DNA from: a virus
Taxonomy: Duplodnaviria > Caudoviricetes
Direction: 5' to 3' (one strand)
Length of the DNA: 64,000 nucleotides
IMG/VR virus record: IMGVR_UViG_3300028797_002668
Span: 71,186-135,185 of that record
Of the stretch, positions 2,526 to 56,981 are shown one piece after another (the first letter of the stretch is position 1; each line of letters opens with the position of its first letter). Below the pieces are notes generated by a model, which worked only from the letters and a program-made list of their open reading frames with translations, was not told where the DNA came from and ran no database searches. The position numbers were made by a program, and so were the translations under genes.

Positions 2526-5500
2526 CTAGCGTTTCAACAAGTCGTTCGCCGACGTCATCCTACCCTTTGTAATAAGCTTGTACAACTGCTCAGTAGTCAA
2601 GGCGGTTGCACGAGCGTCAACGTGGACATGCTCCTTGGTAAGTGAAGCCTTGCGTATTCCGGCCAACTGGGCATTCGACACTACTTTTTCGTAAATTGAC
2701 TCATCGCCGTCTTCCTCGTTGGCTCCAGCACCCTTGATAGAACCGTCCGTCGACTTCGGAGCGTTGTCGTTGATGTCCTTCTGCTTATATATATTACGAA
2801 GCTTGTCGAAGTCAATAAGGTCTTGACCAGCAATTAATCCGAATTCATTTTCTAGCATTGACTCCATAGTCGCGTTCGGACCGTCCTTGAAATGGTCGTA
2901 CATCAATTTTCCGCCAAAATTTTCGAACATTTCTCGAATCTTATCAAATTCGTTCTTAATCTGTGTAGCAATTAAAGAATGTATTAAACGAGCGTCACCT
3001 CGTTCAACATTTCCGTCCCGGTCAAACCCTTCAATGAAACTTTCATCACTTACAGTTTCCACTTGGTATCCCATAGCTACAAGCTGGTCTTCGGTATAGA
3101 AAACACCCTTTATCCACATACCACGTTTCATATTCTGCACATTGGCTTGCTTCTCTCCAAAGAAGTTCCCCTTTGAATTAGGGTTGTAGTCAGGAACCAA
3201 ATCAGTCGTCTTGATATGAATTCTGCCGTCATTTACAGAAATCCATGCGCCGCCGTCACCGACGGACTCAATATATATCTTTGCATCCGCATACAAGCTG
3301 CCAAGGTAATCTTGAACCATTGCAACATAGTCTTCAGAAAATTTGGAATCGACCGTATTCCGGTACTTCTCAACATATTCACCAGCAATAAGAGCCTTTG
3401 CTGCAGATAGACTTCCTATCATGCCATAATACATAATAAGTTGCTTATATGAACGGTCGTTAAGCGACTTCCACTCAGTCATACTTGCACGGGCGGTCTT
3501 GGAAGTACCATTAGCACCTTGCTTTGCGTTTACCAAGTTCACAAATTCAAGTATGTTCTGCAAAACCAAATCATTTGGAACCTTGTAGTTTCGAATATTT
3601 GCTGGGCTTACATAATGATGACCGTTAATAATGATAGCATTCGTGTAAGCAGACCCCTTCCGCAGAACATATGGTATCTTTGTATCTGGCGACTTGTCAT
3701 ACACATAACCAGCCGCATCTACGTCTACGAAACCAAGCGACATAACTGGGTCTTCTTGGTTGAACATAGCGTCGCGAAACTTAGGAGCATCCTTGTGATT
3801 TACACCAATAGGCAAAAATTCCCAATCAAATAGGTTGGCACCCATCTTGAGACGACCGCACCATACGACATTCAACGGCTTTCCAAATGCACCGTTAGCA
3901 CAAGCCACGGTAAATCCTTCAGCAATGTCGATAAGTTTTTTCATGTCATCACTACCGTCCTCGATAGCCAATCCAGTAATCGGGTCGTTAATTAAGATTT
4001 TTATTGCAAGGCCATAGTTATGCCATGACAAAAACGTGCTTTCCGCACTTCCAGTACACAATAGAGCTTGGTCATCAATAGAACGCATCGTATCGACAAC
4101 TTCGACTTGACGAGCACCGTAAGTATTACGTAAAATACCAAGCAATATGGAAACAGCGTCATATATTCCAAGCTGTGCTCGCATGTCACCTATACGCTTA
4201 GAACTCGGTCTGAAAATTCTCCATCCTTCCGTCTTGTCATCATTGGCCGGTACTTCGCGTGAAATACTCGCATACTTACTTTGGTCGAATGCTCCGTAAC
4301 TCTCAAACGCCCATCTACGGATTTCACTGTCGTAAGGTAAGTACGGCATCTTGTACTCAATACGAACTGGAGTAAGTTCATCTGACTTGCTAGTCGGATC
4401 AAGAGGTAAATATGCACCGTATACAAATACCACAGAACCTTCGGACAAATTACCATTTGTTATATGAAACTCGCGAGACGACTTTGTAATAGCAACGGTA
4501 ACACGAACTCCTTCGGCATTAGTCAGAACAAAATCTGAACTCTTAAACTTAGTTATGGTATGTGGCTGTATCTGTCCAGTCTCATTACCTTCTAAATCCA
4601 TATCAAACACTAATGAACCATTCTTGACATTAGCATTCTTATTAATTGGAACGAACTGCTGTGGCTCGTTCGTATTTTGTGGATAAGATTCATAAACATC
4701 ATTATCTACAAATGTCACTTCAGCCCATCTGACTCCAATTGAACGCTTGACCATCTTGTGACGCGTACGGAAAAATTTACGATAGCGAACACGAACCTTC
4801 TTATACATCAGCACCGGAACCATAAACCGAGCTGGCATATACAAGTAAGGACATGGACGGTCGTTACGATTATCAACATAAGACTTGTTATCAAATACCG
4901 ACTCACCTGTAAACGTCTGGTACCAGCGTATTTTATTAATGGTGTCCATTAATTCAGCATACTTTTCTTTGGCTTCACGCAGTTTCAACTTCTGCACTAA
5001 CAAGTACGCCGGCCCGAAAAACAGTGACTGGACGGTCAGTATATTATCAATTTCGTCAATCGATTCATCCATTACATCGGTAGCAAATTTGATACAACCA
5101 TCGATATCAGAATTCGGTATATCGCCTACATTGTCATACTTATCATATGCCGGAACAAAATCAGATTGCGACATTACATAACCAGCCAAAGAGCACGAAT
5201 CCCACTGTACCACTTTTATTTCAGTGTCATCAGTTAATCCACCATTAAATGCAATAGACTCGCTCCCAAATTTCTTGCGATTTATAGCATCCAGCATGCA
5301 AGTAATATTCCATTCGCATATATCAGCGAACTGCTTAGCCGAACCTCCATATTGAACCGAATCATTATTAAATTCAGCGGTCAAAGTCTCAACGCCTTGA
5401 ATCGTGCTATTACGTTCATTAGGAGCGAATGTTGGATTTACCGGCTTTGTCAAAGTTACCGAACCAGCATCGCCAACCGCAGTGATATCAACAAAAAATC

Positions 5501-18704: not shown

Positions 18705-20261
18705 TTAACCTAGATCGAATAGTTGTTCGCGTTCCTTGGTAGAGATGAAGTATCCAGTAGCCTTGTTCGGACCGGCGACCGATTTCACCAAGTACATTCC
18801 ATTGAGAAGCGGCTTAGGCGTAACCTTGAGAAGTTCCTTCGGTTCATCTCGCGGTGTAAGGATATAGTAGGGCAGTATACCGTCGTTCATCTTCACATAG
18901 GTATACAGTATAGCCGCCTTGAACGACATGTTGGATTTTTTCGCCTCTTCGACCGCTTCCGGACCGATGGCGTTGCAGATGTCATCCAAGTTTTCCTTAG
19001 ACATGTAGCGAGTATACTTTTCCATGCCTTGTGGCGACGAGGGTTTATTTATCTGGTAGAACTGTGTCAAGTATGGAATCGGAATTTCGATTTCCGGACC
19101 GTCCATAAAATAGTTCTTGTCTTGGGTTTCGCCACGGAATTTATCGAGTAAGCCTTCGGTCAGTGTCTGTTCGTCGATGGGATTTACTGATTCAGTAATC
19201 TGTGTGGAACGTGTGTTTATTGGGTTGACAAAGACCGTGTTGTTTCCACCATCTAGACTGTTTTGTGCACCGTTGAATAATGCTTCTATATTTTCTCCGC
19301 CAGTTATTTTTAACGGTTTATGTACGATTGGAATGCACTTGGCACGACCGCAGTTCCGAACGCGCTGTATGATGCTTTTCCATCCACCGAACATAGTACG
19401 ATTTCCAAGTGCCTTAGCGATTGGTGTATTCTTTATTTCTTTAACAAACTCTTTGACAAGCGTTTTTAAATAACCAATGTCGTCTGCTGGTTTTAACAAT
19501 TCCTTCACTGTACCGCTAGCGAAGTTAATCATAGGAAATCCAAACCGATTAGACGTACAGAATTCACCCAGAACTGATGGCGGTTGGTTAAATCCTTTTG
19601 GAATTTTTATAACCGGAATTTCTTTTGGCATTACCGTATTGGTTTCTTGATTAATGTTTGCCGTGTTTGCCGTACGGAACGGCAATGTAATCTTGTCTTT
19701 TTGATTACCGTTGTAGTAGTTGGTTAAAGCGCCTACTAGTTTAGTGTCGATGGTTACGTTTTCGTCACCAAACGTTTTTAACTTCTCAGCAATTTGCTTT
19801 ACATGCTTATTCAAAAACTTGATAAGCTTTTGGCCATCTTCGGGATTAGACTTGTAACGTCGTTTGATACCGTCGGCAACTTTAGGAAACTGTAGTTCGA
19901 ATGCACCGATTTCTGGAGCTTGTTGTTCGGTAGATGAAGGTTTGCCAGATGGTTCGCCAGACGGTTTGTCAGACTGTTCGCTAGATGGTTTGCTGGATGG
20001 TTTGTCAGACGGTTCACCAGACGGTTCAGATTGAGTTGAAGTTTGTTGCTTTGAATCATTTTGATCGTCTGACGGATTGATAATATTTCCGTTACCGTCA
20101 CGTAAGGATTCGGTCAGAACCTTGGTATTAGGAACTGATTCGATACCGCCTTCAATTGCGTCGATGATAGACCGCATTCCTTCTACGCTGACAGCGTCGA
20201 TTTCCGGTTCATTGTCATCAAAATCGTCATTGAGGTCGGTATTGAACATATACTCCAACAT
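18705..20261 (-). CDS. Putative internal head protein; paralogue of 20339..22228
   Basis: Late motif at 20286-20293; LTES/ITES/LTEG motifs; shared C-terminal domain. Confidence 0.6.
   Translation of the reverse strand: MLEYMFNTDLNDDFDDNEPEIDAVSVEGMRSIIDAIEGGIESVPNTKVLTESLRDGNGNIINPSDDQNDSKQQTSTQSEPSGEPSDKPSSKPSSEQSDKPSGEPSGKPSSTEQQAPEIGAFELQFPKVADGIKRRYKSNPEDGQKLIKFLNKHVKQIAEKLKTFGDENVTIDTKLVGALTNYYNGNQKDKITLPFRTANTANINQETNTVMPKEIPVIKIPKGFNQPPSVLGEFCTSNRFGFPMINFASGTVKELLKPADDIGYLKTLVKEFVKEIKNTPIAKALGNRTMFGGWKSIIQRVRNCGRAKCIPIVHKPLKITGGENIEALFNGAQNSLDGGNNTVFVNPINTRSTQITESVNPIDEQTLTEGLLDKFRGETQDKNYFMDGPEIEIPIPYLTQFYQINKPSSPQGMEKYTRYMSKENLDDICNAIGPEAVEEAKKSNMSFKAAILYTYVKMNDGILPYYILTPRDEPKELLKVTPKPLLNGMYLVKSVAGPNKATGYFISTKEREQLFDLG
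19938..20029 (-). repeat. 12-bp tandem repeat encoding SEPSGEPSDKPSSKPSSEQSDKPSGEPSGKPS
   Basis: About 7-8 degenerate units visible in DNA and protein. Confidence 0.75.
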
Positions 20262-20285
20262 ATGAAAGCCTACTACTTTTACTGC

Positions 20286-20293
20286 AGTTTATA
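20286..20293 (-). promoter_or_regulatory. Putative late promoter TATAAACT
   Basis: 25 bp upstream of ATG 20261. Confidence 0.7.
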
Positions 20294-20338
20294 TAGTTAT
20301 TGCTAATTGAAAAGCCTTGCTCGTCGCAAGGCTTGATT

Positions 20339-22228
20339 TTAGTTGATGTCGGAGTAGAGGCTTTTTGCCGACTTCTTGTCTATCAAGAAGCAACCTCTCT
20401 TACCTTTGAAGATTGTCTTGAGCATAATGCAACGAGTTCCGCCGAACAGTGCCGAGAACAAAGAACCCGGAGAAACGTCAGTACGACTGAACTTAGCCTG
20501 TTTGGGGATGAGGAGATAGAACGGACTACGTCCTCCGTTATCGAGAATTTCTTCATAAAATTCTTGCATGGACAATCCATCGGTAAACTTTGCATAAGTT
20601 TTGAACGCTTTTGTATAGTCAAGCACGTCGTAGAAGTTTTCCAAGAATTCCCTTGGGACGTCAACGCTAGGCTGATATGCTGGGTCTACGCTGAAATACA
20701 TGATAGGCGTTACGGTTACCGTATCGGCGTTTTCATCCAAGATGTCAGCATCAACCTTCAGAAAGTTCGGTACACAGCGGGTACCTGGGTCGTTGGCGAA
20801 TTTCTTGAATAGTTCGAGCGGAGCACCGTAGATAGCTTTCCAGATTCCACCGTAGCGTTTCTTGGCTTCCTTAAGCATCTTTTTGATGTGCTTGAAGGTA
20901 CGCTTCTTGTCATCTAAGTCCTTTGTCTTGAACAAGTGCTGGATAGCCTCGCTGCTGAAGTTTAGGAACGGGTATCCGAAGTCTGTTATAACTGGGGTGT
21001 TCCAAATCGCAGTGCTTACCGAATGTCTAAACCCTTCGGGAAGTCTGAAATGAATAGGAGTACGCCGTGTATTTACAGCTTGAGGGGGATTGTCGTTGTT
21101 TTGCTTCAGTTCGGACGGAATAGGATTTGCTTCGGGTGTTACCGTGGGATCTGGTTCTGGTTCTGGATTAGTATCCGGAATATCCACTGGTTCTATAACA
21201 TGTTTAACGGGTTCTATAGCCGGAGATTTGATTGGTTCAGTGTTGAATACGTTATCCGAATTTACTAGCTCGGAATCTGGTACTAACGAGTCGTCTACTT
21301 TAGTTTGGGTTACAACATTGTTAACATTGTTTTTAGGTTCGTTAACAATGTTTGTAGGTTCGACTTTGCTGTCTGGTTCTTGTGGCGTATCAACCGGATT
21401 GTCAATATCAGTCTTTGGGGTAACATCGTTCGAGTTACCATCCGTATTTACCGGACTGGTTGTTTTCGGGACATCTTCATTTGTAACGGTGTCTTGATTG
21501 ACTTCAGAACTTGGACTAGGTACGGGTTCTTTCAAATTGTCAGCTTGGATGGTCGGTACTTGCGTTTTTTCCTCGGCCGGTGTTTCTGTTTTTTGAACCG
21601 TAGCCGTTTGTTCTGGCGGTACCGTTTCACTGGAATCGGGTTGTTGTTCCGCTGGTATATTGTTGTTATGTTTAGCTTGGTTATCTAATTCATCGCTCCC
21701 AAGATTTTGAGCGGTAATCGTACCTTTAATCGAGTTTAAATGTTGGATAAATACGATTAACGAATCTTTAGTAACCCACGGTTCAATCTGGTAATTATCT
21801 AAAATTTCCGAAAACGTAGAAAAATCGACGGATTTAGAATTTGAAATTTTAGATTGAAACGCCAAGTACAATTTTCGAACTACTTCCAAATCTACATCAT
21901 GTACTGATGAATATGCACAAAGGTAAGATATAGTTGCTGTTATTGCGATAAGTTCTTCGGTATTCGTTAACCAATCCTGCGTATTTTTTTTATTAGATTT
22001 TGAGCTGGTAATCAAGTCAGCAATACTATTTAAAACGCTGGATTTGATATCAGCTTTGGCTCTTTCTGTACTTTTATCGGTTGACGAAACTGAATCGATA
22101 CAAGCATCTACAGCTTTATTGATACCATCACGGATGGCAGCTTCTAATCCGACCTTCGGTTCGGATGACAATGCGTTTTTGATATTATTTAGGTATTTTT
22201 CCTTTTCCGCCGCTGTAATACTTGCCAT
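20339..22228 (-). CDS. Putative internal head protein with a low-complexity linker; paralogue of 18705..20261
   Basis: Late motif at 22257-22264; P/T/N/E-rich linker; shared C-terminal domain. Confidence 0.6.
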   Translation of the reverse strand: MASITAAEKEKYLNNIKNALSSEPKVGLEAAIRDGINKAVDACIDSVSSTDKSTERAKADIKSSVLNSIADLITSSKSNKKNTQDWLTNTEELIAITATISYLCAYSSVHDVDLEVVRKLYLAFQSKISNSKSVDFSTFSEILDNYQIEPWVTKDSLIVFIQHLNSIKGTITAQNLGSDELDNQAKHNNNIPAEQQPDSSETVPPEQTATVQKTETPAEEKTQVPTIQADNLKEPVPSPSSEVNQDTVTNEDVPKTTSPVNTDGNSNDVTPKTDIDNPVDTPQEPDSKVEPTNIVNEPKNNVNNVVTQTKVDDSLVPDSELVNSDNVFNTEPIKSPAIEPVKHVIEPVDIPDTNPEPEPDPTVTPEANPIPSELKQNNDNPPQAVNTRRTPIHFRLPEGFRHSVSTAIWNTPVITDFGYPFLNFSSEAIQHLFKTKDLDDKKRTFKHIKKMLKEAKKRYGGIWKAIYGAPLELFKKFANDPGTRCVPNFLKVDADILDENADTVTVTPIMYFSVDPAYQPSVDVPREFLENFYDVLDYTKAFKTYAKFTDGLSMQEFYEEILDNGGRSPFYLLIPKQAKFSRTDVSPGSLFSALFGGTRCIMLKTIFKGKRGCFLIDKKSAKSLYSDIN

Positions 22229-22256
22229 AACGTACCTAACTTTTTACCTGTACGTC

Positions 22257-22264
22257 AGTTTATA
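22257..22264 (-). promoter_or_regulatory. Putative late promoter TATAAACT at the IS left end
   Basis: 29 bp upstream of ATG 22228. Confidence 0.7.
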
Positions 22265-22265
22265 A

Positions 22266-23773
22266 CATAGCGGCGAGAAAACTCACCCATCTTCAGTGGG
22301 TGAGATGAAAGCCGCTTGACAAATGGGCGGTCGCAAGCTCACGCCCTTCAGGGCGTGGGTAAGACCCGCCGGGTGCAAATGTAAGAAATAAATAACAATT
22401 CAAGGCTATTAAAATAGATATAGTTATTGAGTAAAACTTCTAAACTATAAGTATAGTCAAGAAACTTGATATGGAACTGATAAGAAGCGAAGATACGAAG
22501 GCGAGGATTAAGGCGAGCATGGCTGAGACGCATGCCCGTCGTAAGACGCAGATATGCCGTGTCTTCGAGCTTAAGGTGTCCATACGGCACAATCCCAAAT
22601 CGGTGTTCGAGAAGTTATCCAACTGCTTCAAGGAGGCAAAGTGGGTAATCAACGACATGCTGTCGTTGTCCAAGGACAATCCCGACAACAGCATGTTCGA
22701 TTACAAGTACACCGAGCATAAGGACGTTGTTCACTACGACAAGGACAAGAACCCAGTAACTTCGCCAATCACCTTGCCGTCTGTTCTCCACAGGGCTACT
22801 GTAGCCCAGAAGAAGACCGACATTGTCAACCTTGCCAAGGCCAAGAAGAAGGGTATAAAGGTCGGTGCGCTGAAGTTCAAAAGCGAAGTGAACTGCATTC
22901 CCATCATTACGGGTTTCACGAAGATTTTGGATGCAAGCCATATCACCATTCCTGGTTTCAGGAAATTGAAAGTGAACGGCTTGCATCAGATAGAGTTTGA
23001 GGAATACGAGATAGCGGACGCCAAGCTAATTCGCAAGGCGTCCGGCTACTATGTAAAGCTCACCATTATGTTGCCGAAGGAACCGAGAAACCGCACCCGC
23101 AAGAGTGTCGGCCTGGACTTCGGCATCAAGAACACGATAACGACATCGGACAACAAGACCTACGATTGCAAAGTGCAAGAAACCGAGTACCTGAAGTACC
23201 TATCAAAGATGTTGAATAGGCACAAGAAAGAGAAGGACTCCAAGCGGCGATGGAACTGTAGGAAGCAGCTTGCCCGTGAGCATGAACATGTCGCGAATAT
23301 CCGCAAGGACATCTGCAACAAAATATACCACGACCTTGTGTCCAACTACGATGTCATCTACATACAAGACGAGCAAATCAAGAACTGGCACCAGACGTGG
23401 TTCGGCAAGCAAGTGCAGCATTCTTGCATGGGTGCCCTTAAACAGCGCATTAAGATGCTGGTTAAGGCAGACCGTGCATTCGTGCTGTCCAAGTGGCTGC
23501 CGACAACCAAGATGTGTCCGGTCTGCGGTGCCGTCAATCAGATAGGTTTGGATGAACGCACATATCACTGCGATTGCGGTTATACCAAGCCGAGGGATTG
23601 GCATTCCGCCTGTAATGTACTCTTGTTTGGCACGACTAAACGTGCTGAGTGCGTGGAACACGCCTCCGCTGAGGTAGCCGCCTCTATGCCTCCCGGTTCT
23701 ACTGGGTTAGCACAAGCGGCTCCGTCGAAGCGAAAACTCGAAGCTCACCGCCTTTAGGCGGTGGGTAGTTCAC
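22266..23773 (+). mobile_element. IS200/IS605-family tnpB-only (IS1341-like) element; left boundary approximate
   Basis: Left hairpins 22270-22315 and 22326-22370; right hairpin CTCACCGCC-TTTA-GGCGGTGGG followed by TTCAC (23769-23773); no tnpA in the window. Confidence 0.85.
22471..23757 (+). CDS. tnpB: TnpB RNA-guided endonuclease family protein
   Basis: RuvC-I VGLDFGIK, RuvC-II region IYIQDE, zinc finger CPVCG..CDCG, RuvC-III RDWHSACNV. Confidence 0.92.
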   Translation: MELIRSEDTKARIKASMAETHARRKTQICRVFELKVSIRHNPKSVFEKLSNCFKEAKWVINDMLSLSKDNPDNSMFDYKYTEHKDVVHYDKDKNPVTSPITLPSVLHRATVAQKKTDIVNLAKAKKKGIKVGALKFKSEVNCIPIITGFTKILDASHITIPGFRKLKVNGLHQIEFEEYEIADAKLIRKASGYYVKLTIMLPKEPRNRTRKSVGLDFGIKNTITTSDNKTYDCKVQETEYLKYLSKMLNRHKKEKDSKRRWNCRKQLAREHEHVANIRKDICNKIYHDLVSNYDVIYIQDEQIKNWHQTWFGKQVQHSCMGALKQRIKMLVKADRAFVLSKWLPTTKMCPVCGAVNQIGLDERTYHCDCGYTKPRDWHSACNVLLFGTTKRAECVEHASAEVAASMPPGSTGLAQAAPSKRKLEAHRL

Positions 23774-23793
23774 TGAAAAGCTTATAAACTACG
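23640..23793 (+). ncRNA. Predicted omegaRNA/reRNA: scaffold overlaps the tnpB 3' end; guide about 23774-23793 (TGAAAAGCTTATAAACTACG)
   Basis: Known TnpB architecture plus the visible right-end hairpin and TCAC; 5' boundary is a guess. Confidence 0.6.
23783..23790 (+). promoter_or_regulatory. Putative late promoter TATAAACT
   Basis: 27 bp upstream of ATG 23817. Confidence 0.7.
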
Positions 23794-23816
23794 GTTAAGA
23801 ATTTTGTGGTAGCATT

Positions 23817-26800
23817 ATGATGTCTCGTAATCTAATTGAAAGCGTCGATCCAGGTACAGTTAATGCCTATGCTAAGCAAGCGTATCAGACTATAGACGAT
23901 TTCCTCGGAAGCGGTAAATCTTTAGATGTAAAACGTCCGTTTGCGTATGGCATGATTAGCGCAAACCCGATTGCTGTATCGATTTTAGACGATATTAGAA
24001 AAAGAGTCAATACAATGACGCCGACTAACGAGCAACAGAATACGGACAACGGCATTGATAATAGTCCGTACAGCTCTGGTATTCGTTATACGGCGGAAAA
24101 TAAAGCCTATTATGTTCGAGGCTGTATTTATTTGGTTTCTACCGTTATCCCAAGCTTGGCTAAATATCTGTTTGATAGAGTTCAAGCGTTTAATGATAAG
24201 TCGGTTCCGAACGAAGCCGTTAACTATGCTTATCTAGTTTTTAAGAATAACTATTTGAACGCATCTGGTAGACAGTCAAATAATCCGATGGCTGTCGCAT
24301 CTCAAAAATTTAGTATTGCGTTTATTAGTGCGGCTGAACTCGGTACAAAATCACGTCCTAATACGGCTGTTGAAGATGATACCTCGGCGTCAAGTGCACT
24401 TTTTAACAAATTCGACAATATCGTATATAGACTTAATTCTGCCGCTGATTTTATTAATGCGGTGTTGATGGCAACTGTAGGAACTGACAAGGCGACCGAG
24501 CAACAAGTAAATTTAGCGGCAAACTTGTTGCTTGCTCGTTATATCGCTGAAGATAATGCCATAAAAAATTCCGGAATTCCGGAAATGGGACGGTTCCTTA
24601 ATAATTTCGCCGAGCGCACTAAAAGTAGTTTGTCTAAGACAAAGAATGTAGCTCGGATAGATGATAATGACACTAGCGATAGCATTAATCAGTCTAATGA
24701 TGATAATACATCCGAAAATATAGTACCTAAAAACATTGACATTCCAGAAGATAAAGCTAACCAGCATACTGTTATTTCTGGCCAAACTCGATTCTTCGCG
24801 AACTCTTATATCAAATTGTTTGCGGCAAACTTTGCCGAGCGCCTTTCTATGCAACCTACGGGTTCTATTGATAGTAAGAATCCGCGAGTCACTCAGAATG
24901 ACGTTATGACGGCAATGCGACTTATTTTCAAGAATTGTATTCCACAAGTGAAGCCAGAACAGCTTACTCCGAAACTAGTTGATGTGATAACTGCCGATAC
25001 ATTGGCTAATAACACAGATGACGCTTTGTTTGTTCACCAGAAAATGGCTGAATATGTGTCTACACAACTGTTCGATGACTTGTTGAAGGAATACAAGAGT
25101 GAAAAATATTGCTCGAAAATTATTGATACAGTGCGTTTGATCTATTTAGCGATGACCAATACACCGCCTGATTACTTGGCTGAACCCGTATATGGTTATG
25201 GTGATTACAACGCTAATGACCGTGTTAAAAAGACTGGACAAACCTCGATTGGTGATGAACTTGCAGCATTATTCGTTAATGATGGAACGGATGTCCATAT
25301 TATGAATATGAACGCCAAATCGAAAAATAATGCAGACAATGACAAAAATAAAAAAGAAGACCCTAGGTTAAAAAGGTTGTCTACGATATCGCTTCATGAG
25401 ATCGATTCGATTCCACTTAGTGATATCCGTTCAGTTGCCAAAAACTATCAATCTCCTAAGTTGGTTCTAATCAAGAATACTTGGGGTGTTCTTAATGGAA
25501 TCGTACCAGCGTCTGAAGTCACCGGCGAAGATTTTGAAGATGCGAAAGAAATTAGTCCGCTGGTGACTAATGTTCAAACGCGTCTAGGTGACCAAGACCC
25601 TGCATTCAGTTTGGCTGATCTAAAGAAAAAACAACAGATTGTCAAGTCGAGAATTTACACGGCTGACAACCGTAGAAAATTGAAGAATGCCGGTTTTGCC
25701 ACGGGTAATGAGAGTGGCTCTGATTTGGAAAACCTTGCTAATACGGTTCTTGAAAAGGCCACTACGGTTGCTGACGGAAATAAATATGATGTTTTGCCAG
25801 CAATCACACGTACCGCTGCCATAGCAAAGGCGTTCACAAATGTCGTTAACACTTATATTCGTAGCTGCACTAATATCAAAAGTGACGCGTTAACGAGTAT
25901 CCAGCGTAAGAAGATTTATGAAGCTACACCAACAGCCGAAGCTTTTGTTATCCAAGGTCAAAGTGCGGTTGACTTCGCTGTATATCGTTTCTTGACTTCC
26001 GAAAAGAATCGAGTAGGTAGCGCCACTAATAAAGCTGACCAAGACGCTGTTACTGCGTTGACGCTTGCCATTAAGAATGCCATATTCTTAAGAGACGGAG
26101 AAGGAGAATATGACGACAAAACCACGAACGATTTGCTAAATAAGACTGTTGGCTATTTTGATAGTTTTGCTTCTTGGAATGCACAGGCTCAAAAAGTTAA
26201 ATTGGATATGTCTGATAATGCTATAGTTAACGCTGATAGTGGCCAGATATCCAACATTATTAAGTTGATTGTTAATCCAGAAACTACTAATCGTTGGTCC
26301 GGTTATTTGAAAACAGTTACTAATGAATCAATTGATCAGAAAACCGGAGACCCTATTGTTGACCAAGAAATTGCAAACCGTAATATTTTGATCGACGGCT
26401 GGAATACAATATTTACTGGAAGTGAGTATACGACCGATGACTTGTATACTGTTCAAGACCTTTGCGATGAGTTTGCTAAAGTAAATCGACCGTATGAAAA
26501 GTTCAACGAGTTGTATACCCCTACTCAGCTATTAATTACTTTGAGTGGGGTTGGTGAAGCAAATCAGACTGATATAGAAGCTGATGGAGAAAACCATGAA
26601 TTCGAGTATGATAATGTACCGACTGAGAATTTGACCCAAGCCGCTCCAGTATCAATATTTGATAAGGAAAATCGGAACGCATTGGATTTGAATCAGCTCG
26701 ATGAAAATCTTGATGATAATAGCTTGCAGCAAGTGTATGGCGATGAAGTTGATGAGCAAGACGTTGCTAAAGACCCAATTGGTTCGTTTGATGACGTTAT

Positions 26801-33048: not shown

Positions 33049-33069
33049 GGTTTTTAGTAACTAAAAACT

Positions 33070-33077
33070 TATAAACT
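33070..33077 (+). promoter_or_regulatory. Putative late promoter TATAAACT
   Basis: 25 bp upstream of ATG 33102. Confidence 0.7.
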
Positions 33078-33101
33078 GCGTATAGCATTTGGGACGTTTC
33101 T

Positions 33102-53145: not shown

Positions 53146-53185
53146 AGTTTATCAAGCGAACGAAAAAATGACCAAGGTATAAACT
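53146..53185. promoter_or_regulatory. Divergent pair of late motifs: GATAAACT (minus, 53146-53153) and TATAAACT (plus, 53178-53185)
   Basis: Each lies 25-35 bp from its start codon. Confidence 0.65.
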
Positions 53186-53218: not shown

Positions 53219-53821
53219 ATGTTCCACGTAACTGACGAAGATAAATTCCTGGGTCTAATCGACACGGTCGCAGCTGAACCGATCGATGATGAACCATACA
53301 GCATCGTCAAAGACCCTAAACCAGTAGTGGAGACCGTCTGCACGTTCGATGGCGTCCAGATTGATCTCGAAAGCTGGTCTAAGAGCGATGGCGTTGCAAC
53401 AGACTCAAACAAGGTCGGCAAGGCCAAAACGGCTCCAGATCCGAAACTGACAAAGGCTGCACCTAAGACTTCTTCCGAAAAGAAGGATGATGGCAAGCTT
53501 GTGGAAAAGGACGAGGTCGACGACAAGAAAAAGAAAGACCAGATTGTTGAAGTCAACGCTGAAGCTGAAGTGAAAGCCGAAAAGGCTCCTGAAGCTGGTA
53601 AGGGTGGTGAATTCGACAAGGCTGCCAAGTCTGCCGCTACGTCTCAAGAAAGCGAAGCCAAGTCCAACAAGAAGTTCGCTCCGGGTTGCGATATCCAGAA
53701 GCGAATCGACATGTTCAAGAAGGGTGTAGCTAAGCTCGGTGTCGATGAAAAGACTAAGGCGGATACTACCAAGATCTTGAAGGAATTTGACCAGATTTCT
53801 TCGTATCTAACTGGTAAGTAA
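53219..53821 (+). CDS. Lys/Glu-rich hypothetical late protein (200 aa)
   Basis: Late motif upstream; DLES motif. Confidence 0.6.
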   Translation: MFHVTDEDKFLGLIDTVAAEPIDDEPYSIVKDPKPVVETVCTFDGVQIDLESWSKSDGVATDSNKVGKAKTAPDPKLTKAAPKTSSEKKDDGKLVEKDEVDDKKKKDQIVEVNAEAEVKAEKAPEAGKGGEFDKAAKSAATSQESEAKSNKKFAPGCDIQKRIDMFKKGVAKLGVDEKTKADTTKILKEFDQISSYLTGK

Positions 53822-53835
53822 TATCCATAAAAATT

Positions 53836-53866
53836 GGCAAAACCGTCAGAAATGGCGGTTTTTGTC
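53836..53866 (+). terminator. Intrinsic terminator
   Basis: AAAACCGTCA-GAAA-TGGCGGTTTTT. Confidence 0.75.
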
Positions 53867-53881
53867 GTCTTGTGACATAAT

Positions 53882-53930: not shown

Positions 53931-56900
53931 ATGCCCGTAGTAAACGAAGAACAGAAACCACAAGTGAGACCGATGTACCGCTCGGTCTACCACGATACCG
54001 ATAACGACCGTATGTACGTATGGTATGTTGACGGTACTTTTGACGCTGTACCCGTCAAGCACGAGTTTTATACTACCATTAAGGGTCAGTACAATGCCGT
54101 CGAATGCGGAATGAAGAACATCTGGGACCAAGATGTCTACAAGATTGAAATCAAGAAGCGCGAAGGATTGTCTGCCTACGAATTTGAAAAGCGCATCCGC
54201 CAAGACCATAGCGGACCGAACAACAACCTCGCGGAAATCGATATCGACCCGCGATGCCGTTTCCTACAAGACCATTATAAAGACGCTGGAATGATGTCTC
54301 CGAAGATGGAGGACATCAATCTGTGCTTTATGGATATTGAAAACGCCACCACCGGACGATTCTCCGCGCCGGTCGAGGCGTTGTACCCAATCAACGTAGT
54401 TACCCTATCGTTTTCTAAAGGGAAAAAGCGTTACACTTTCGGCTTGCAGCGCGATATCGATGAAAAGTCGAAAGAGTTTTTACGATCCAAGAATTGCGAA
54501 TATGTTTTGTGCAGTAGCGAAGCTGACCTTATTTCGAAGGTGATGTATTGCATCGGTTCAAACGATGTAGACATCCTCTCCGGTTGGAACTTCGGGTACG
54601 ATACCGTGTATATGGCCACTCGTATCAAGAAGCTTAACGAAGGTCTTCCTCGCGCACAGCAGTTGTCCCTAGACTTGATGTCCAGAATGCGTGGGCATAA
54701 CAAGCACGCCTATTTGAACAAGGAGAATGAACTTGTCATTAACGGTACTGAAGTTATCGACTTCCTTGCCTTGTACAAGAAATATACGTTTTCCGAAGAA
54801 TCTTCTTATAAGTTGGACTATATCGGTGGAAAGGTCGTCGGTCAGCACAAGGCTCCGCTTCCTGACGGCTACCAGTCTTGGATTAACCACTGGTCTGACT
54901 ATGTAGTGTATAACTTTATCGACGTGGAACTTCTGGAACTCATTAACGAGAGGACCCAGATGTTCAAGCTTGCCGTTACCTCGGCTGCCGCCGCTCGTGT
55001 TCCTGTTTCGTTCGTGTTTGAGTCCAAGAAGATGCTGACTGGCTTCGTGCTGGATCACTTGCATCATACTGGACGCGTGTTCCCTCCGTACAAGACCCAG
55101 ACCAAGGAAGAGTTCCCCGGTGCTTTCGTTTACTCCGTTCCGGGCTACAAGGAATATTTGGTTTCGTATGACTACCGTTCACTATATCCGTCGATTATGA
55201 TGACTTTCAATACCTCTCCGGAGATGAAGGTCACTTTCCCGATTGATTATGTGCTGACGGAGGAAGAACGCAAGAATCTTATCAAGTCTCCTTGGGACCA
55301 CAATGGCCGTTACCAAGTCTACTTCCGCAAGGACAAAATCGGCGTCGTTCCCGAAGTTACTCGTCTTCTTTTCGACGGTCGTTCGGACTTGAAAAAGAAG
55401 ATGAAGAAGGCGAAGAAAGCCGGTGACAAGGAAGGTGCCGCAGTTTATGACATGATGCAGAAGGTGTACAAGGTATTGGGTAACTCTTTGTACGGTCTTC
55501 TCGGTTCCAACTTCTTTGCACTTTACGACGTTGACAATGCAGCTTCGATCACTGCTTACGGTCGTAGTCTTATCAAGTTCACTATCAAGTGCTTGACTGA
55601 GTATATCAACAACGACATAAGCACGGACGACCGTTTCTACAACGTATTCGGCTACCGTCCAGAAATCGACCCGGAACTGGTTGGTTCATTTACGGCTTCG
55701 GAACTCAATGATAAGTACCAGCGTATAAGCCATTTTGAAGACGACGATATGGAAGAAACTGAACTAGCCGACTCGTTTTCTGATGCGGAAAGCGACGTAT
55801 ATTACAAGAGAATGAGCCACGGTGATACCGACTCATTCTTCGTGAAGTTCGGCGATATTTTCGAGCCGTTCAGGTTGAAGCAAGGAACTGGAACATCGGT
55901 TCTTGTATTCAAGGGTCATGAACTTGTCGAGCACGAGAAGTTCGACAATGAGCATGAGCTTGATTCCAAGAAGTTCTTTAATAAGATGTGCCTCAAGTAT
56001 GGCAAGGACGGATGGACGTCCGCAGAGATGCGTACACCAGACGAACATACTGGATTCACCAAGTGCCAGATTACGTTTGCCGACGGTATCTATTTCTGTG
56101 GTGACTATAGGGTTATATACAACCGCTATCGTCTCACTGATTTCTGCCGTATTCTTGATGCTTGCATCCTTGAAGAGGAACTGGATAAGTACATGCTTGC
56201 CTACGCTAACAAGTGGAACTACTTAACAAACGAGCTGTTCCTCAAGCGTGAAAAATGCATCTACAAGTCCATTGTTACGGCCAAGAAAAAGTATATCTGC
56301 TTGGTCGAGTCAATGGAAGACATCGTTTACCTTAATCAAGGTCACAAGGACGAGAATGGTAAGTGGATTCAAGGCGATTTGTCAGTCAAGCCAGAATACG
56401 CTATCACCGGTCTTGAACTAGTCCGTAGTTCCACCGCTGTATTCGGTCGTGACCGTATGATGGAAATGGTGGACTTGATGATGGATGGTCTTGACCGTAC
56501 TAAAGTTCGCAACCGCTTGCTTGAAATGAAGAAGGAATTTTTCAAGGCTGTTGCTGACAATGACATCAACTACATCGCTTGTCCTAGCGGCGTCAAGACG
56601 GCACCGCCTCCGTTCGAAGTCCTTGAAAAGATGACGACCGAGGAAAAGCTCGCAAACAAGTACGAATGGCGTTGCCAAGGTGCGTCCGTTTGGAACTACT
56701 TGATTCTGCACGACCCGGAACTGTCCAAGCACACCTACGAACCGGTTGCCGCTGGCTCCAAGATCCGTTTCATCAAGAAAGCTGACAAGTTGTTCGGTGT
56801 GTCTATCATCTGCTACACTGGTGATGAATGTCCAGCTAGACTGCTCGAAATATTCCATCCGGACTGGGAAGAACACTGGAAGACCAGCGTCGCCCAAATT

Positions 56901-56981
56901 CTTGGAAGACTGTTTGAGGCCGTAGGCTGGGATGAACAGCTAGAATATGACGAAAGCGACTTTATGATGGAGTATTTCTAA
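53931..56981 (+). CDS. 43: Family B DNA polymerase, T4 gp43 homologue
   Basis: ExoI DIE, ExoII GWN..YD, ExoIII YNFID, DYRSLYPS, KVLGNSLYG, HGDTDS, KKKY, GLELVRSST. Confidence 0.95.
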   Translation: MPVVNEEQKPQVRPMYRSVYHDTDNDRMYVWYVDGTFDAVPVKHEFYTTIKGQYNAVECGMKNIWDQDVYKIEIKKREGLSAYEFEKRIRQDHSGPNNNLAEIDIDPRCRFLQDHYKDAGMMSPKMEDINLCFMDIENATTGRFSAPVEALYPINVVTLSFSKGKKRYTFGLQRDIDEKSKEFLRSKNCEYVLCSSEADLISKVMYCIGSNDVDILSGWNFGYDTVYMATRIKKLNEGLPRAQQLSLDLMSRMRGHNKHAYLNKENELVINGTEVIDFLALYKKYTFSEESSYKLDYIGGKVVGQHKAPLPDGYQSWINHWSDYVVYNFIDVELLELINERTQMFKLAVTSAAAARVPVSFVFESKKMLTGFVLDHLHHTGRVFPPYKTQTKEEFPGAFVYSVPGYKEYLVSYDYRSLYPSIMMTFNTSPEMKVTFPIDYVLTEEERKNLIKSPWDHNGRYQVYFRKDKIGVVPEVTRLLFDGRSDLKKKMKKAKKAGDKEGAAVYDMMQKVYKVLGNSLYGLLGSNFFALYDVDNAASITAYGRSLIKFTIKCLTEYINNDISTDDRFYNVFGYRPEIDPELVGSFTASELNDKYQRISHFEDDDMEETELADSFSDAESDVYYKRMSHGDTDSFFVKFGDIFEPFRLKQGTGTSVLVFKGHELVEHEKFDNEHELDSKKFFNKMCLKYGKDGWTSAEMRTPDEHTGFTKCQITFADGIYFCGDYRVIYNRYRLTDFCRILDACILEEELDKYMLAYANKWNYLTNELFLKREKCIYKSIVTAKKKYICLVESMEDIVYLNQGHKDENGKWIQGDLSVKPEYAITGLELVRSSTAVFGRDRMMEMVDLMMDGLDRTKVRNRLLEMKKEFFKAVADNDINYIACPSGVKTAPPPFEVLEKMTTEEKLANKYEWRCQGASVWNYLILHDPELSKHTYEPVAAGSKIRFIKKADKLFGVSIICYTGDECPARLLEIFHPDWEEHWKTSVAQILGRLFEAVGWDEQLEYDESDFMMEYF

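What the first reader, a model, noticed from the sequence alone, without database searches (positions are those of the whole stretch)
22257..23793. tnpB element inserted between two back-to-back late promoters, so its predicted guide contains the late-promoter motif
Seen: TATAAACT (minus, 22257-22264) is a few bases from the left hairpin, and TATAAACT (plus, 23783-23790) begins 10 bp after the right-end TTCAC. The predicted guide TGAAAAGCTTATAAACTACG matches another promoter region (33061-33080, CTAAAAACTTATAAACTGCG) at 16 of 20 positions, but the first two seed bases mismatch. Known: TnpB guides derive from the 3' flank and cut element-free alleles. Inference: the element could home against co-infecting sibling phages at an essential promoter pair; a TAM such as TTTAT, the reverse strand of the promoter core, would bias insertion to late promoters; a binding-only TnpB could modulate late transcription.
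Basis: partly seen in the sequence, partly recalled or inferred. Interest (0 to 1): 0.7.

Follow-up and report, generated by a model that had tools for sequence, protein, structure and literature searches.

The report
Nested TnpB transposon between phage promoters
A small transposase-less jumping gene carrying the RNA-guided nuclease TnpB really does sit between two back-to-back promoters of a giant T4-like rumen phage. It got there by riding behind a fragment of a second transposon family whose target is the promoter signal itself, and the promoter sequence in its guide is a by-product of position, not a sign of a regulatory role.

Summary
Observation confirmed. TATAAACT is a genuine phage promoter core: 27 copies in the 135-kb record, each 5-57 nt upstream of an ATG ORF. 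The tnpB gene (22471-23757) is intact. The right end is exactly ...GTTCAC (23773), so the guide starts TGAAAAGCTTATAAACT.

Interpretation only partly supported.
- The resident TnpB element (IS-A, 22321-23773) has the TAM TTGAC, seen as NTGAC in 14 of 15 copies, not TTTAT.
- None of its 13 other mapped copies lies near an exact promoter core.
- No other promoter in the record combines a TAM with a good guide match.
- The 56 nt to its left (22265-22320) are the start of the left end of a second TnpB family (IS-B). That family's target, TTTAT(A), is the reverse of the promoter core, and 6 of 9 IS-B insertions abut AGTTTATA.
- A 98.5%-identical phage contig from another study lacks the whole 1.5-kb composite and has a 21-bp spacer there, with TTAAC rather than TTGAC.

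TnpB is under strong purifying selection (dN/dS 0.08). It has a clade-wide non-canonical RuvC-II motif (QDE). A nuclease-dead regulator is unlikely.

The scan had already found promoter-docked TnpB elements on other rumen-phage DNA. This is a new variant of a known kind, of moderate interest.

The parts
22257..22264 (-). Promoter core TATAAACT of the 629-aa gene (ATG at 22228). Its + strand reading TTTATA (22259-22264) is also the target/TAM of the IS-B left end.
   Evidence: motif statistics and downstream ORFs. (present in both empty alleles). (all 9 IS-B copies begin after TTTATA).
22265..22320 (+). 56-nt fragment of the left end of a second TnpB element family (IS-B). Outer stem GCGGC 22270-22274 / GCCGC 22311-22315, hairpin CTCACCC...GGGTGAG 22282-22304, ending in TTGAC. 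The rest of IS-B (leader, tnpB-B, right end) is absent.
   Evidence: Near-identical to the first 56 nt of 9 full IS-B copies in IMG/VR jumbo-phage contigs. Absent from the empty allele. Repeated in rumen metagenomes at about 10x the phage depth, with loose ends at 22259 and 22320.
22316..22320 (+). TTGAC: TAM / target site of the resident element (IS-A), supplied by the IS-B left-end fragment.
   Evidence: TTGAC x9, CTGAC x3, GTGAC, ATGAC in 15 copies. TTGAC sits at the same place in every IS-B left end without IS-A.
22321..23773 (+). Resident non-autonomous IS200/IS605-type element 'IS-A' (1453 bp). Left-end hairpin 22338-22359, tnpB, omega-RNA region, right-end hairpin 23744-23765, terminus TAGTTCAC.
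   Evidence: Boundaries from 14-15 independent copies whose flanks diverge exactly here.
22439..22446 (+). Promoter-like core TCTAAACT (one mismatch) 24 nt upstream of the tnpB ATG.
   Evidence: Read. The 70%-identity subfamily (L011, L012, L014-L016) has an exact TATAAACT at the same place.
22471..23757 (+). tnpB, 428 aa. RuvC-I D216, RuvC-II Q299-D300-E301 (non-canonical), zinc finger C349/C352/C367/C369, RuvC-III D376.
23574..23773 (+). Probable omega-RNA scaffold, overlapping the tnpB 3' end and the right end. Its 5' limit is not determined.
   Evidence: RNAalifold on 14 copies gives 48 pairs, 18 with compensatory changes. The single-sequence fold has z = -3.3. No Rfam match.
23774..23793 (+). 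Predicted guide / target-matching flank TGAAAAGCTTATAAACTACG (first 16 nt: 23774-23789).
   Evidence: Follows the right-end boundary. Unique in the 135-kb record.
23783..23790 (+). Promoter core TATAAACT of the 1989-aa gene (ATG 23817), at guide positions 10-17.
   Evidence: Conserved in relative L002.

Best explanation
The stretch is a composite of two IS200/IS605-type, transposase-less TnpB elements in a T4-like jumbo phage of the ruminant gut.

Shown:
- The outer left junction is the first 56 nt of the left end of family IS-B. Its insertions always follow TTTAT(A), the reverse strand of the phage promoter core TATAAACT. They therefore dock at the upstream edge of promoters and leave the core intact.
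- That fragment contains TTGAC, which is the TAM of the resident family IS-A. IS-A (22321-23773) sits immediately after it.
- The native spacer of close and distant relatives has no TTGAC.

Inferred:
- IS-A could reach this place only after, or together with, the IS-B fragment.
- TnpB with its omega-RNA, whose guide is the 16-20 nt right flank, works as in ISDra2 and other IS605 elements. It would cut an allele from which IS-A has been lost (TTGAC + TGAAAAGCTTATAAAC...), so that recombination with an occupied sibling genome restores the element.
- The promoter core inside the guide is a by-product of where the element landed. It has no regulatory role.
For: - TnpB identity and fold.
- Right end and TAM from 15 copies.
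- IS-B identity of 22265-22320 and its TTTATA junction in 9 copies. Six of 9 junctions read AGTTTATA. Five of those have a divergent ORF of 157-629 aa starting 18-37 nt downstream; the sixth (L031) has a 96-aa ORF at 6 nt. P = 0.013 to 1e-5, depending on the TAM length assumed.
- Motif enrichment in 4 of 5 host phages of these elements.
- Empty alleles: a relative at 40-50% aa identity, and a 19.5-kb contig about 98.5% identical from an independent study that joins 22264 to 23772 with 19 other letters between.
- Other IS-A copies are not at promoters. There is no TAM-bearing off-target.
- Purifying selection on tnpB, with all 10 close copies intact: median dN/dS 0.077 over 45 pairs.
- Omega-RNA covariation.
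- Y1 TnpA is present in two complete related phage genomes.
- The homing role of TnpB is taken from PMC10055086.
Against: - The canonical RuvC-II glutamate is a glutamine (Q299), so nuclease activity is inferred, not shown.
- No TnpA is found in the 135-kb record, which is only 36% complete.
- The 21-bp native spacer is missing, which neither clean insertion model predicts.
- No IS-A-free allele (a 22320 to 23774 joint) was seen in four runs. These were contig data that drop rare variants.
- Omega-RNA expression and its ends are untested.
- The order of events that produced the composite is unresolved.
Confidence: 0.75

Rival explanations
1. The composite (IS-B left-end fragment plus IS-A) is itself a mobile chimera. 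IS-A first inserted into the left end of an IS-B copy elsewhere. A Y1 transposase then used the IS-B left end with the IS-A right end and moved the whole unit to TTTATA at this promoter. This concerns history only and is compatible with the mechanism above.
For: - The two families have nearly the same right-end hairpin and terminus (GGTGGGTAGTTCAC versus GGTGGGTAGTTCAT) and similar left-end architecture, so one TnpA could serve both.
- The left junction is a perfect IS-B junction, and the right flank is native phage DNA.
- No remainder of IS-B is present.
Against: - No second copy of the junction was found in IMG/VR.
- An extra 21-bp deletion at the right end is still needed.
- The sequential route (IS-B insertion, microhomology deletion TTGACT/TTAACT, then IS-A insertion at TTGAC) needs no unusual step.
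Confidence: 0.3
2. One reading: the resident TnpB has a TTTAT-like TAM, so the element is biased to late promoters. It homes into co-infecting sibling phages by cutting their essential promoter pair.
For: - The element lies between two promoters, and the guide covers one of them.
- The outermost left junction does follow TTTATA.
Against: - The TAM of this TnpB family is NTGAC in 14 of 15 copies.
- The 13 other mapped copies are not at exact promoter cores.
- The TTTATA junction belongs to a different family whose tnpB is absent here.
- The closest empty allele has TTAAC before the guide match.
Confidence: 0.07
3. The TnpB is a nuclease-dead, TldR-like RNA-guided DNA binder. Through its promoter-containing guide it represses or tunes the 1989-aa gene or other TATAAACT promoters.
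For: - The canonical RuvC-II Glu is replaced by Gln in all 137 relatives examined.
- The guide overlaps a promoter core.
- TldR repressors derived from TnpB are known (PMC10705468).
Against: - D216, D376 and the zinc finger are invariant. An acidic residue (E 114, D 23 of 137) is conserved two positions after Q299, which looks like the 'rearranged' active sites described in PMC10691335.
- Both transposon ends are intact, and 15 copies carry 15 unrelated guides. The guide is therefore not selected for promoters.
- The self-locus has TTCAC rather than a TAM, and the other promoters have no TAM and only 13-16/20 matches.
Confidence: 0.04

Closest known systems
ISDra2 / IS608-type IS200/IS605 elements with TnpB and omega (re)RNA (Karvelis 2021, PMC8612924; Meers 2023, PMC10055086; structures 8EXA, 8H1J, 8IAZ)
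   Same: TnpB fold and domains. Asymmetric ends with subterminal hairpins. Insertion 3' of a 5-nt target that doubles as the TAM (TTGAC here, TTGAT in ISDra2). No target duplication. A structured RNA overlapping the tnpB 3' end, with the guide being the right flank.
   Different: No tnpA in the element (IS1341-like, non-autonomous). It resides in lytic T4-like jumbo phages. The RuvC-II motif is QDE instead of E-D-L. The left side is fused to a left-end fragment of another family.
Catalytically 'rearranged' TnpB branches (RIIr groups; Altae-Tran et al. 2023, PMC10691335)
   Same: The canonical RuvC-II glutamate is replaced clade-wide while the rest of the site is conserved. The paper notes that some such branches are virus-specific.
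   Different: The paper's main example has Gly with a Glu on a distant loop. Here it is Gln with Asp/Glu at +1/+2. Which published branch this clade corresponds to could not be determined.
TldR, TnpB-like nuclease-dead repressors (Wiegand et al., PMC10705468)
   Same: A TnpB-family protein whose guide matches a promoter.
   Different: TldRs have lost catalytic residues and transposon ends and keep a conserved guide. Here both ends are intact, guides differ in every copy, and RuvC-I and RuvC-III are intact.
Promoter-docked TnpB elements of rumen jumbo phages, noted earlier in this scan (e1-5709361)
   Same: TnpB-only elements sitting at the upstream edge of the TATAAACT-type promoter core, with empty sites in near-identical phages. 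This appears to be the same behaviour as the IS-B family characterised here.
   Different: Here only 56 nt of that family's left end remain. A second, non-promoter-targeting family (TAM TTGAC) occupies the site.
T4 late promoters (TATAAATA, read by gp55/gp33/gp45)
   Same: An 8-bp A/T-rich core with no conserved upstream element, about 25-35 bp before the start codon. The phage is T4-like (Gp23). The motif heads baseplate and head-closure genes and a homing-endonuclease gene.
   Different: The core is TATAAACT. Its temporal class is untested, and the major capsid gene lacks it within 400 bp.

Membership tests
IS200/IS605 family, TnpB-only (non-autonomous) element | TnpB ORF with OrfB_IS605 RuvC core and zinc-finger TNB domain | tested here: met
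   Pfam PF01385 (3.6e-11) and PF07282 (3.3e-7), both above cut-off. PDB TnpB matches.
IS200/IS605 family, TnpB-only (non-autonomous) element | Asymmetric ends with subterminal hairpins, precise boundaries shared by copies, no terminal inverted repeats, no target duplication | tested here: met
   Left-end hairpin 22338-22359 and right-end hairpin 23744-23765. Flanks of 14-15 copies diverge exactly at 22320|22321 and 23773|23774, and no duplicated flank is seen.
IS200/IS605 family, TnpB-only (non-autonomous) element | Insertion 3' of a conserved 4-5 nt target (TAM) abutting the left end | tested here: met
   NTGAC in 14 of 15 copies, TTGAC in 9. The TTGAC is shown to be target, not element, because every IS-B left end has it without IS-A.
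IS200/IS605 family, TnpB-only (non-autonomous) element | Y1 (HUH) TnpA transposase available in cis or trans | tested here: inconclusive
   No PF01797 match in the 135-kb record, which is 36% complete. Matches were found in two complete related phage genomes.
IS200/IS605 family, TnpB-only (non-autonomous) element | Omega/reRNA scaffold at the 3' end, continuing into a flank-derived guide | tested here: inconclusive
   Conserved structure with 18 of 48 pairs showing compensatory change. No expression data, and no Rfam family.
Catalytically active TnpB nuclease (RuvC D-E-D) | RuvC-I Asp, RuvC-II Glu, RuvC-III Asp | tested here: inconclusive
   D216 and D376 are invariant. The canonical Glu position is Q299 in 137 of 137 relatives, with D300 (123 D, 12 N) and E301 (114 E, 23 D) following. 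The model is confident (pLDDT 90.7), but no coordinates were available to measure the site geometry.
TldR-like nuclease-dead RNA-guided regulator | Loss of RuvC catalytic residues and transposon ends, with a conserved guide against a promoter | tested here: not met
   RuvC-I, RuvC-III and the zinc finger are intact, both ends are intact, and the guides differ in all copies.
T4-type late promoter | Conserved -10-like octamer without a -35 element, upstream of late (virion) genes, read by a gp55-type factor | tested here: inconclusive
   27 sites, all with downstream ORFs. The motif heads baseplate-wedge and head-closure genes. The phage has Gp23, but the Gp23 gene lacks the motif. No gp55 homologue was searched for, and timing was not tested.

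The most novel reading that the evidence does not exclude
Two TnpB transposon families of rumen jumbo phages form a relay. One family (IS-B) has evolved a target/TAM equal to the phage's own promoter core, giving it harmless 'safe-harbour' docking sites upstream of promoters. Its left end in turn carries the TAM of a second family (IS-A), which thereby piggy-backs into promoter regions. Both families drive tnpB from copies of the phage promoter. If the composite also moves as a unit, nested left ends would let one TnpB element switch target specificity.
Probability: 0.25. Interest if true: 0.6.

Novelty: new variant of a known kind. Interest (0 to 1): 0.42.

Why it matters
- TnpB/IS605 elements are active and diversified inside lytic T4-like jumbo phages of the rumen. 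Fifteen insertion sites of one family and nine of another were seen, with strong purifying selection on tnpB.
- For one family, the target motif coincides with the phage's own promoter core. Such a site tolerates insertion because the core stays intact.
- Nested ends of different target specificity are a plausible route by which such elements reach new sites.
- The clade-wide Q-D-E RuvC-II motif offers a natural test of how flexible the TnpB active site is.
- For the specific claim handed over, a guide that carries a late-promoter motif, the result is deflationary. The guide content is positional, and nothing supports promoter regulation or promoter-directed homing by the resident TnpB.

Tried and rejected
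- Megablast of 20000-26000 against GenBank phages found no match.
- An exact-pattern search for the right promoter region found nothing in IMG/VR or in JGI metagenomes. The second metagenome scan, with the 629-aa protein, found only the distant L002-type empty site again.
- A pattern search for the IS-B-fragment/IS-A junction found nothing in IMG/VR, so it is unknown whether the chimera is mobile.
- Rfam at gathering threshold gave no family in the window.
- PHROGs on 18 of the neighbouring or promoter-headed proteins searched gave no hit, so the temporal class of most promoter-headed genes stays unknown.
- The genome-contig scan for a host found a 95% copy on a 317-kb contig of a 'Bacteroidaceae' MAG and a 70% copy on a 266-kb contig of a 'Bacilli' MAG. 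The second contig itself carries a Gp23 capsid gene and is a binned phage, so no host can be inferred.
- In the four runs laid (Logan contigs, which drop rare variants), no contig joined 22320 to 23774. This says nothing about rare IS-A-free alleles.
- The structure model could not be used to measure the active-site geometry because no coordinates are exposed.
- Simple slippage or direct-repeat deletions do not reproduce the window's left junction from the empty allele. Only 5/6-nt microhomologies (TTGACT or TTCACT versus TTAACT) were found by eye.

Full report
**What is there**

The window is the last 64 kb of a 135-kb IMG/VR virus record, estimated 36% complete. It comes from bovine gut samples. 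The phage encodes a T4-type Gp23 major capsid protein and a family-B DNA polymerase, so it is an uncultured T4-like jumbo phage.

The octamer TATAAACT occurs 10 times in the window against 2.7 expected, and 0 of 100 shuffles reach 10. It occurs 27 times in the whole record. Every copy is followed within 5-57 nt by an ATG ORF of at least 53 aa in the same orientation, and the extended consensus is wTATAAACTrcg.

One, at 22257-22264 (-), heads the 629-aa gene. The other, at 23783-23790 (+), heads the 1989-aa gene. A phage related at 40-50% aa identity in both genes keeps the two cores back to back with a 31-bp spacer and nothing inserted.

**The resident element (IS-A)**

ORF 22471-23757 is a TnpB. 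It matches Pfam OrfB_IS605 and the Cas12f1-like TNB zinc finger and PHROG 506. It gives sequence matches to ISFba1 and ISDra2 TnpB in the PDB. The AlphaFold model has pLDDT 90.7, and its best folds are 8IAZ, 8H1J and 8EXA.

IMG/VR holds 16 further copies in 15 other jumbo-phage contigs, eight of them at 92-96% aa identity. Comparing flanks gives three results.
- All copies end in ...GGTGGGTAGTTCAC, and their flanks diverge at the next base.
- On the left, the shared sequence starts at AAATGGGCGG (22321). It is preceded by TTGAC in 9 copies, CTGAC in 3, GTGAC in 1 and ATGAC in 1; one copy is aberrant.
- The TAM is therefore NTGAC, preferably TTGAC. This is close to ISDra2's TTGAT and unrelated to TTTAT.

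**Is the TnpB functional?**

Ten close copies are all intact, and the median pairwise dN/dS is 0.077 at dS 0.3-0.7. The last 200 nt fold into a conserved structure, with 18 of 48 pairs showing compensatory changes. That is what an omega-RNA scaffold should look like.

RuvC-I D216, RuvC-III D376 and the CxxC...CxC finger are invariant. The canonical RuvC-II glutamate, however, aligns with Q299. In 137 cluster representatives at 33-70% identity the motif is Q (137/137), then D (123 D, 12 N), then E/D (114/23). This is a conserved clade feature and not decay. It resembles the 'rearranged' catalytic sites described for several TnpB branches, some of them virus-specific (PMC10691335). Activity is nevertheless an inference.

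**The left 56 nt belong to another transposon (IS-B)**

The hairpin beside the left promoter (22282-22304) is not part of IS-A. An exact-match search found it in two other phage contigs. In one of them it is the start of the left end of a different TnpB element.

That element's TnpB-B is 442 aa. It is 29% identical to TnpB-A over the RuvC core and has a canonical RuvC-II Glu. Nine full IS-B copies were retrieved.
- All start with TTTATA-A(Y)(R)T(A/G/C)G..., followed by the same hairpin.
- All contain an internal TTGAC 56 nt in.
- All then continue with GATTTTCGGAAATTTTGCTACATATATAAACTG... and tnpB-B.
- All end in ...CCGGTGGGTAGTTCAT.

In the window, IS-A begins exactly after that internal TTGAC. 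The TTGAC is therefore target DNA, which fixes the IS-A left boundary independently of the flank comparison. The rest of IS-B is absent from the record.

**Empty allele**

Laying Logan contigs of four rumen runs on 21300-24800 gave two observations.
- A 19.5-kb contig from an independent study is about 98.5% identical to both flanks. It joins 22264 to 23772 with 19 other letters between (TATTTTTGGCTATAATTTA). The whole composite 22265-23773 is therefore absent from a near-identical phage, which instead has a 21-bp spacer resembling that of the distant relative.
- The 5 nt in front of the guide-matching sequence in that allele are TTAAC. In the distant relative they are TCGAC. Neither is a TAM.

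Three things follow.
- IS-A could not have entered the native spacer through its own TAM. It needed the IS-B fragment.
- The resident TnpB is unlikely to cut this sibling allele.
- The window has lost 21 bp that neither clean insertion model predicts.

Two histories remain open.
- Sequential: IS-B insertion at TTTATA, then deletion of most of IS-B plus 21 bp, then IS-A insertion at TTGAC.
- Chimera: the unit was mobilised through the IS-B left end and the IS-A right end, followed by a 21-bp deletion.

Both deletions would have 5/6-nt microhomology. No second copy of the junction exists in IMG/VR.

The same read data show that the end sequences are about 10 times more abundant than the phage itself. 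They occur in several other contexts, with loose ends at 22259, 22316, 22320 and 23773.

**Promoter association**

For IS-A there is none.
- Of the 13 other copies with both ends mapped, none has an exact TATAAACT within 120 bp of either end. Three (L006, L009, L016) have a one-mismatch match.
- The 14 other guides are unrelated to one another.
- No site in the 135-kb record combines NTGAC with more than 13/20 guide matches.

For IS-B the association is real.
- All nine left junctions follow TTTATA.
- Six read AGTTTATA, the exact reverse of the promoter core. Five of these have a divergent ORF of 157-629 aa starting 18-37 nt beyond the core; the sixth (L031) has a 96-aa ORF at 6 nt.
- In this genome 27 of 102 TTTATA sites, and 27 of 365 TTTAT sites, are promoter cores. 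That gives P = 0.013 to 1e-5 for 6 of 9.
- TATAAACT is enriched in four of five phages that host these elements.

Whether this reflects a longer TAM or survival of harmless insertions cannot be told. The scan reported the same docking behaviour earlier on other rumen-phage DNA.

**Is the promoter 'late'?**

It is plausible but unproven.
- For: the core resembles T4's TATAAATA. It heads a baseplate-wedge gene, a head-closure-like gene and a homing-endonuclease gene. The unit at 53178 ends at a terminator before the DNA polymerase gene.
- Against: the Gp23 gene has no such core within 400 bp upstream. Most promoter-headed proteins have no annotation.

**Mechanism and verdict**

The best-supported reading (about 0.75) is an ordinary IS605-type TnpB/omega-RNA maintenance system in an unusual setting.
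- The IS-B target equals the promoter core and explains why the site lies between promoters.
- The IS-B left end supplies the TAM for IS-A.
- The guide's promoter content follows from position.
- TnpB would act on an allele that has lost IS-A but kept TTGAC.

The transposase must come in trans. None is in this partial record, but two complete related phages encode a Y1 TnpA.

They hold, by coincidence, for the outer left-end fragment of the other family. A TldR-like regulatory role is unlikely (about 0.04). Novelty is that of a new variant of a known kind.

Noticed in passing
L019:3900-3976; L011-L016 about 27 nt upstream of tnpB; window 22439-22446: Both TnpB families carry a copy of the phage promoter core just upstream of tnpB. 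It is an exact TATAAACT in IS-B and in the 70%-identity IS-A subfamily, and TCTAAACT in the window's copy. This suggests tnpB is transcribed by the phage's own machinery.
   Followed up: partly
window 22471-23757, residues 299-301: A large TnpB clade (327 representatives at E<1e-30) has an invariant Gln at the canonical RuvC-II Glu position, followed by Asp and Glu/Asp. It is probably one of the 'rearranged' catalytic sites of PMC10691335, but the branch could not be assigned.
   Followed up: partly
G000:C1:45188-45227 (outside the window; L047:5188-5227): A second back-to-back promoter pair, with cores 24 bp apart and a GC-rich palindrome (GGTCGCCCGACC) between them. It drives a baseplate-wedge gene and a head-closure-like gene.
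   Followed up: partly
L049:1449-1884 (G004) and L050 (G005): Two complete related jumbo-phage genomes encode a 136-144-aa Y1 TnpA. In G004 the gene starts 18 nt after an AGTTTATA and is followed by a convergent 457-aa ORF. This is a possible source of transposase for the TnpB-only elements.
   Followed up: no
L020:11960-12030 (-): A solo IS-B-like left-end hairpin (same CTCACCCATCTTCAGTGGGTGAG) without any tnpB, in an intergenic region of another jumbo phage. Remnants of these ends seem common.
   Followed up: no
L008:2740-3000 and 4285-4303: This IS-A copy has an intact tnpB (94% aa) but lacks the left-end hairpin and has a degenerate right-end hairpin (GGCGGTGAACAGTTCAC). It is probably an immobilised copy.
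   Followed up: no
L006:2830-2860 and 4304-4325: One IS-A copy sits after CATAAACTGAC, between a promoter-like core and the RBS/ATG of the downstream gene. Promoters of the form TATAAACTGAC contain the IS-A TAM, and the window's left promoter also reads TATAAACTGAC.
   Followed up: partly
window 53821-53875: An intrinsic-terminator-like hairpin (AAAACCGTCAGAAATGGCGGTTTTT) separates the TATAAACT-headed 200-aa gene from the DNA polymerase gene (53931-56981).
   Followed up: no
G000:C1:6447-7226 (-) (L045): A homing-endonuclease gene (PHROG 655) is headed by TATAAACT, as are many T4 homing-endonuclease genes by late promoters.
   Followed up: no
G008:C52 (JAZLKX010000052.1, 266 kb): A contig binned in a 'Bacilli' MAG carries a Gp23 capsid gene and a 70%-identical IS-A TnpB. 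It is almost certainly a jumbo-phage contig mis-binned into a bacterial MAG.
   Followed up: partly
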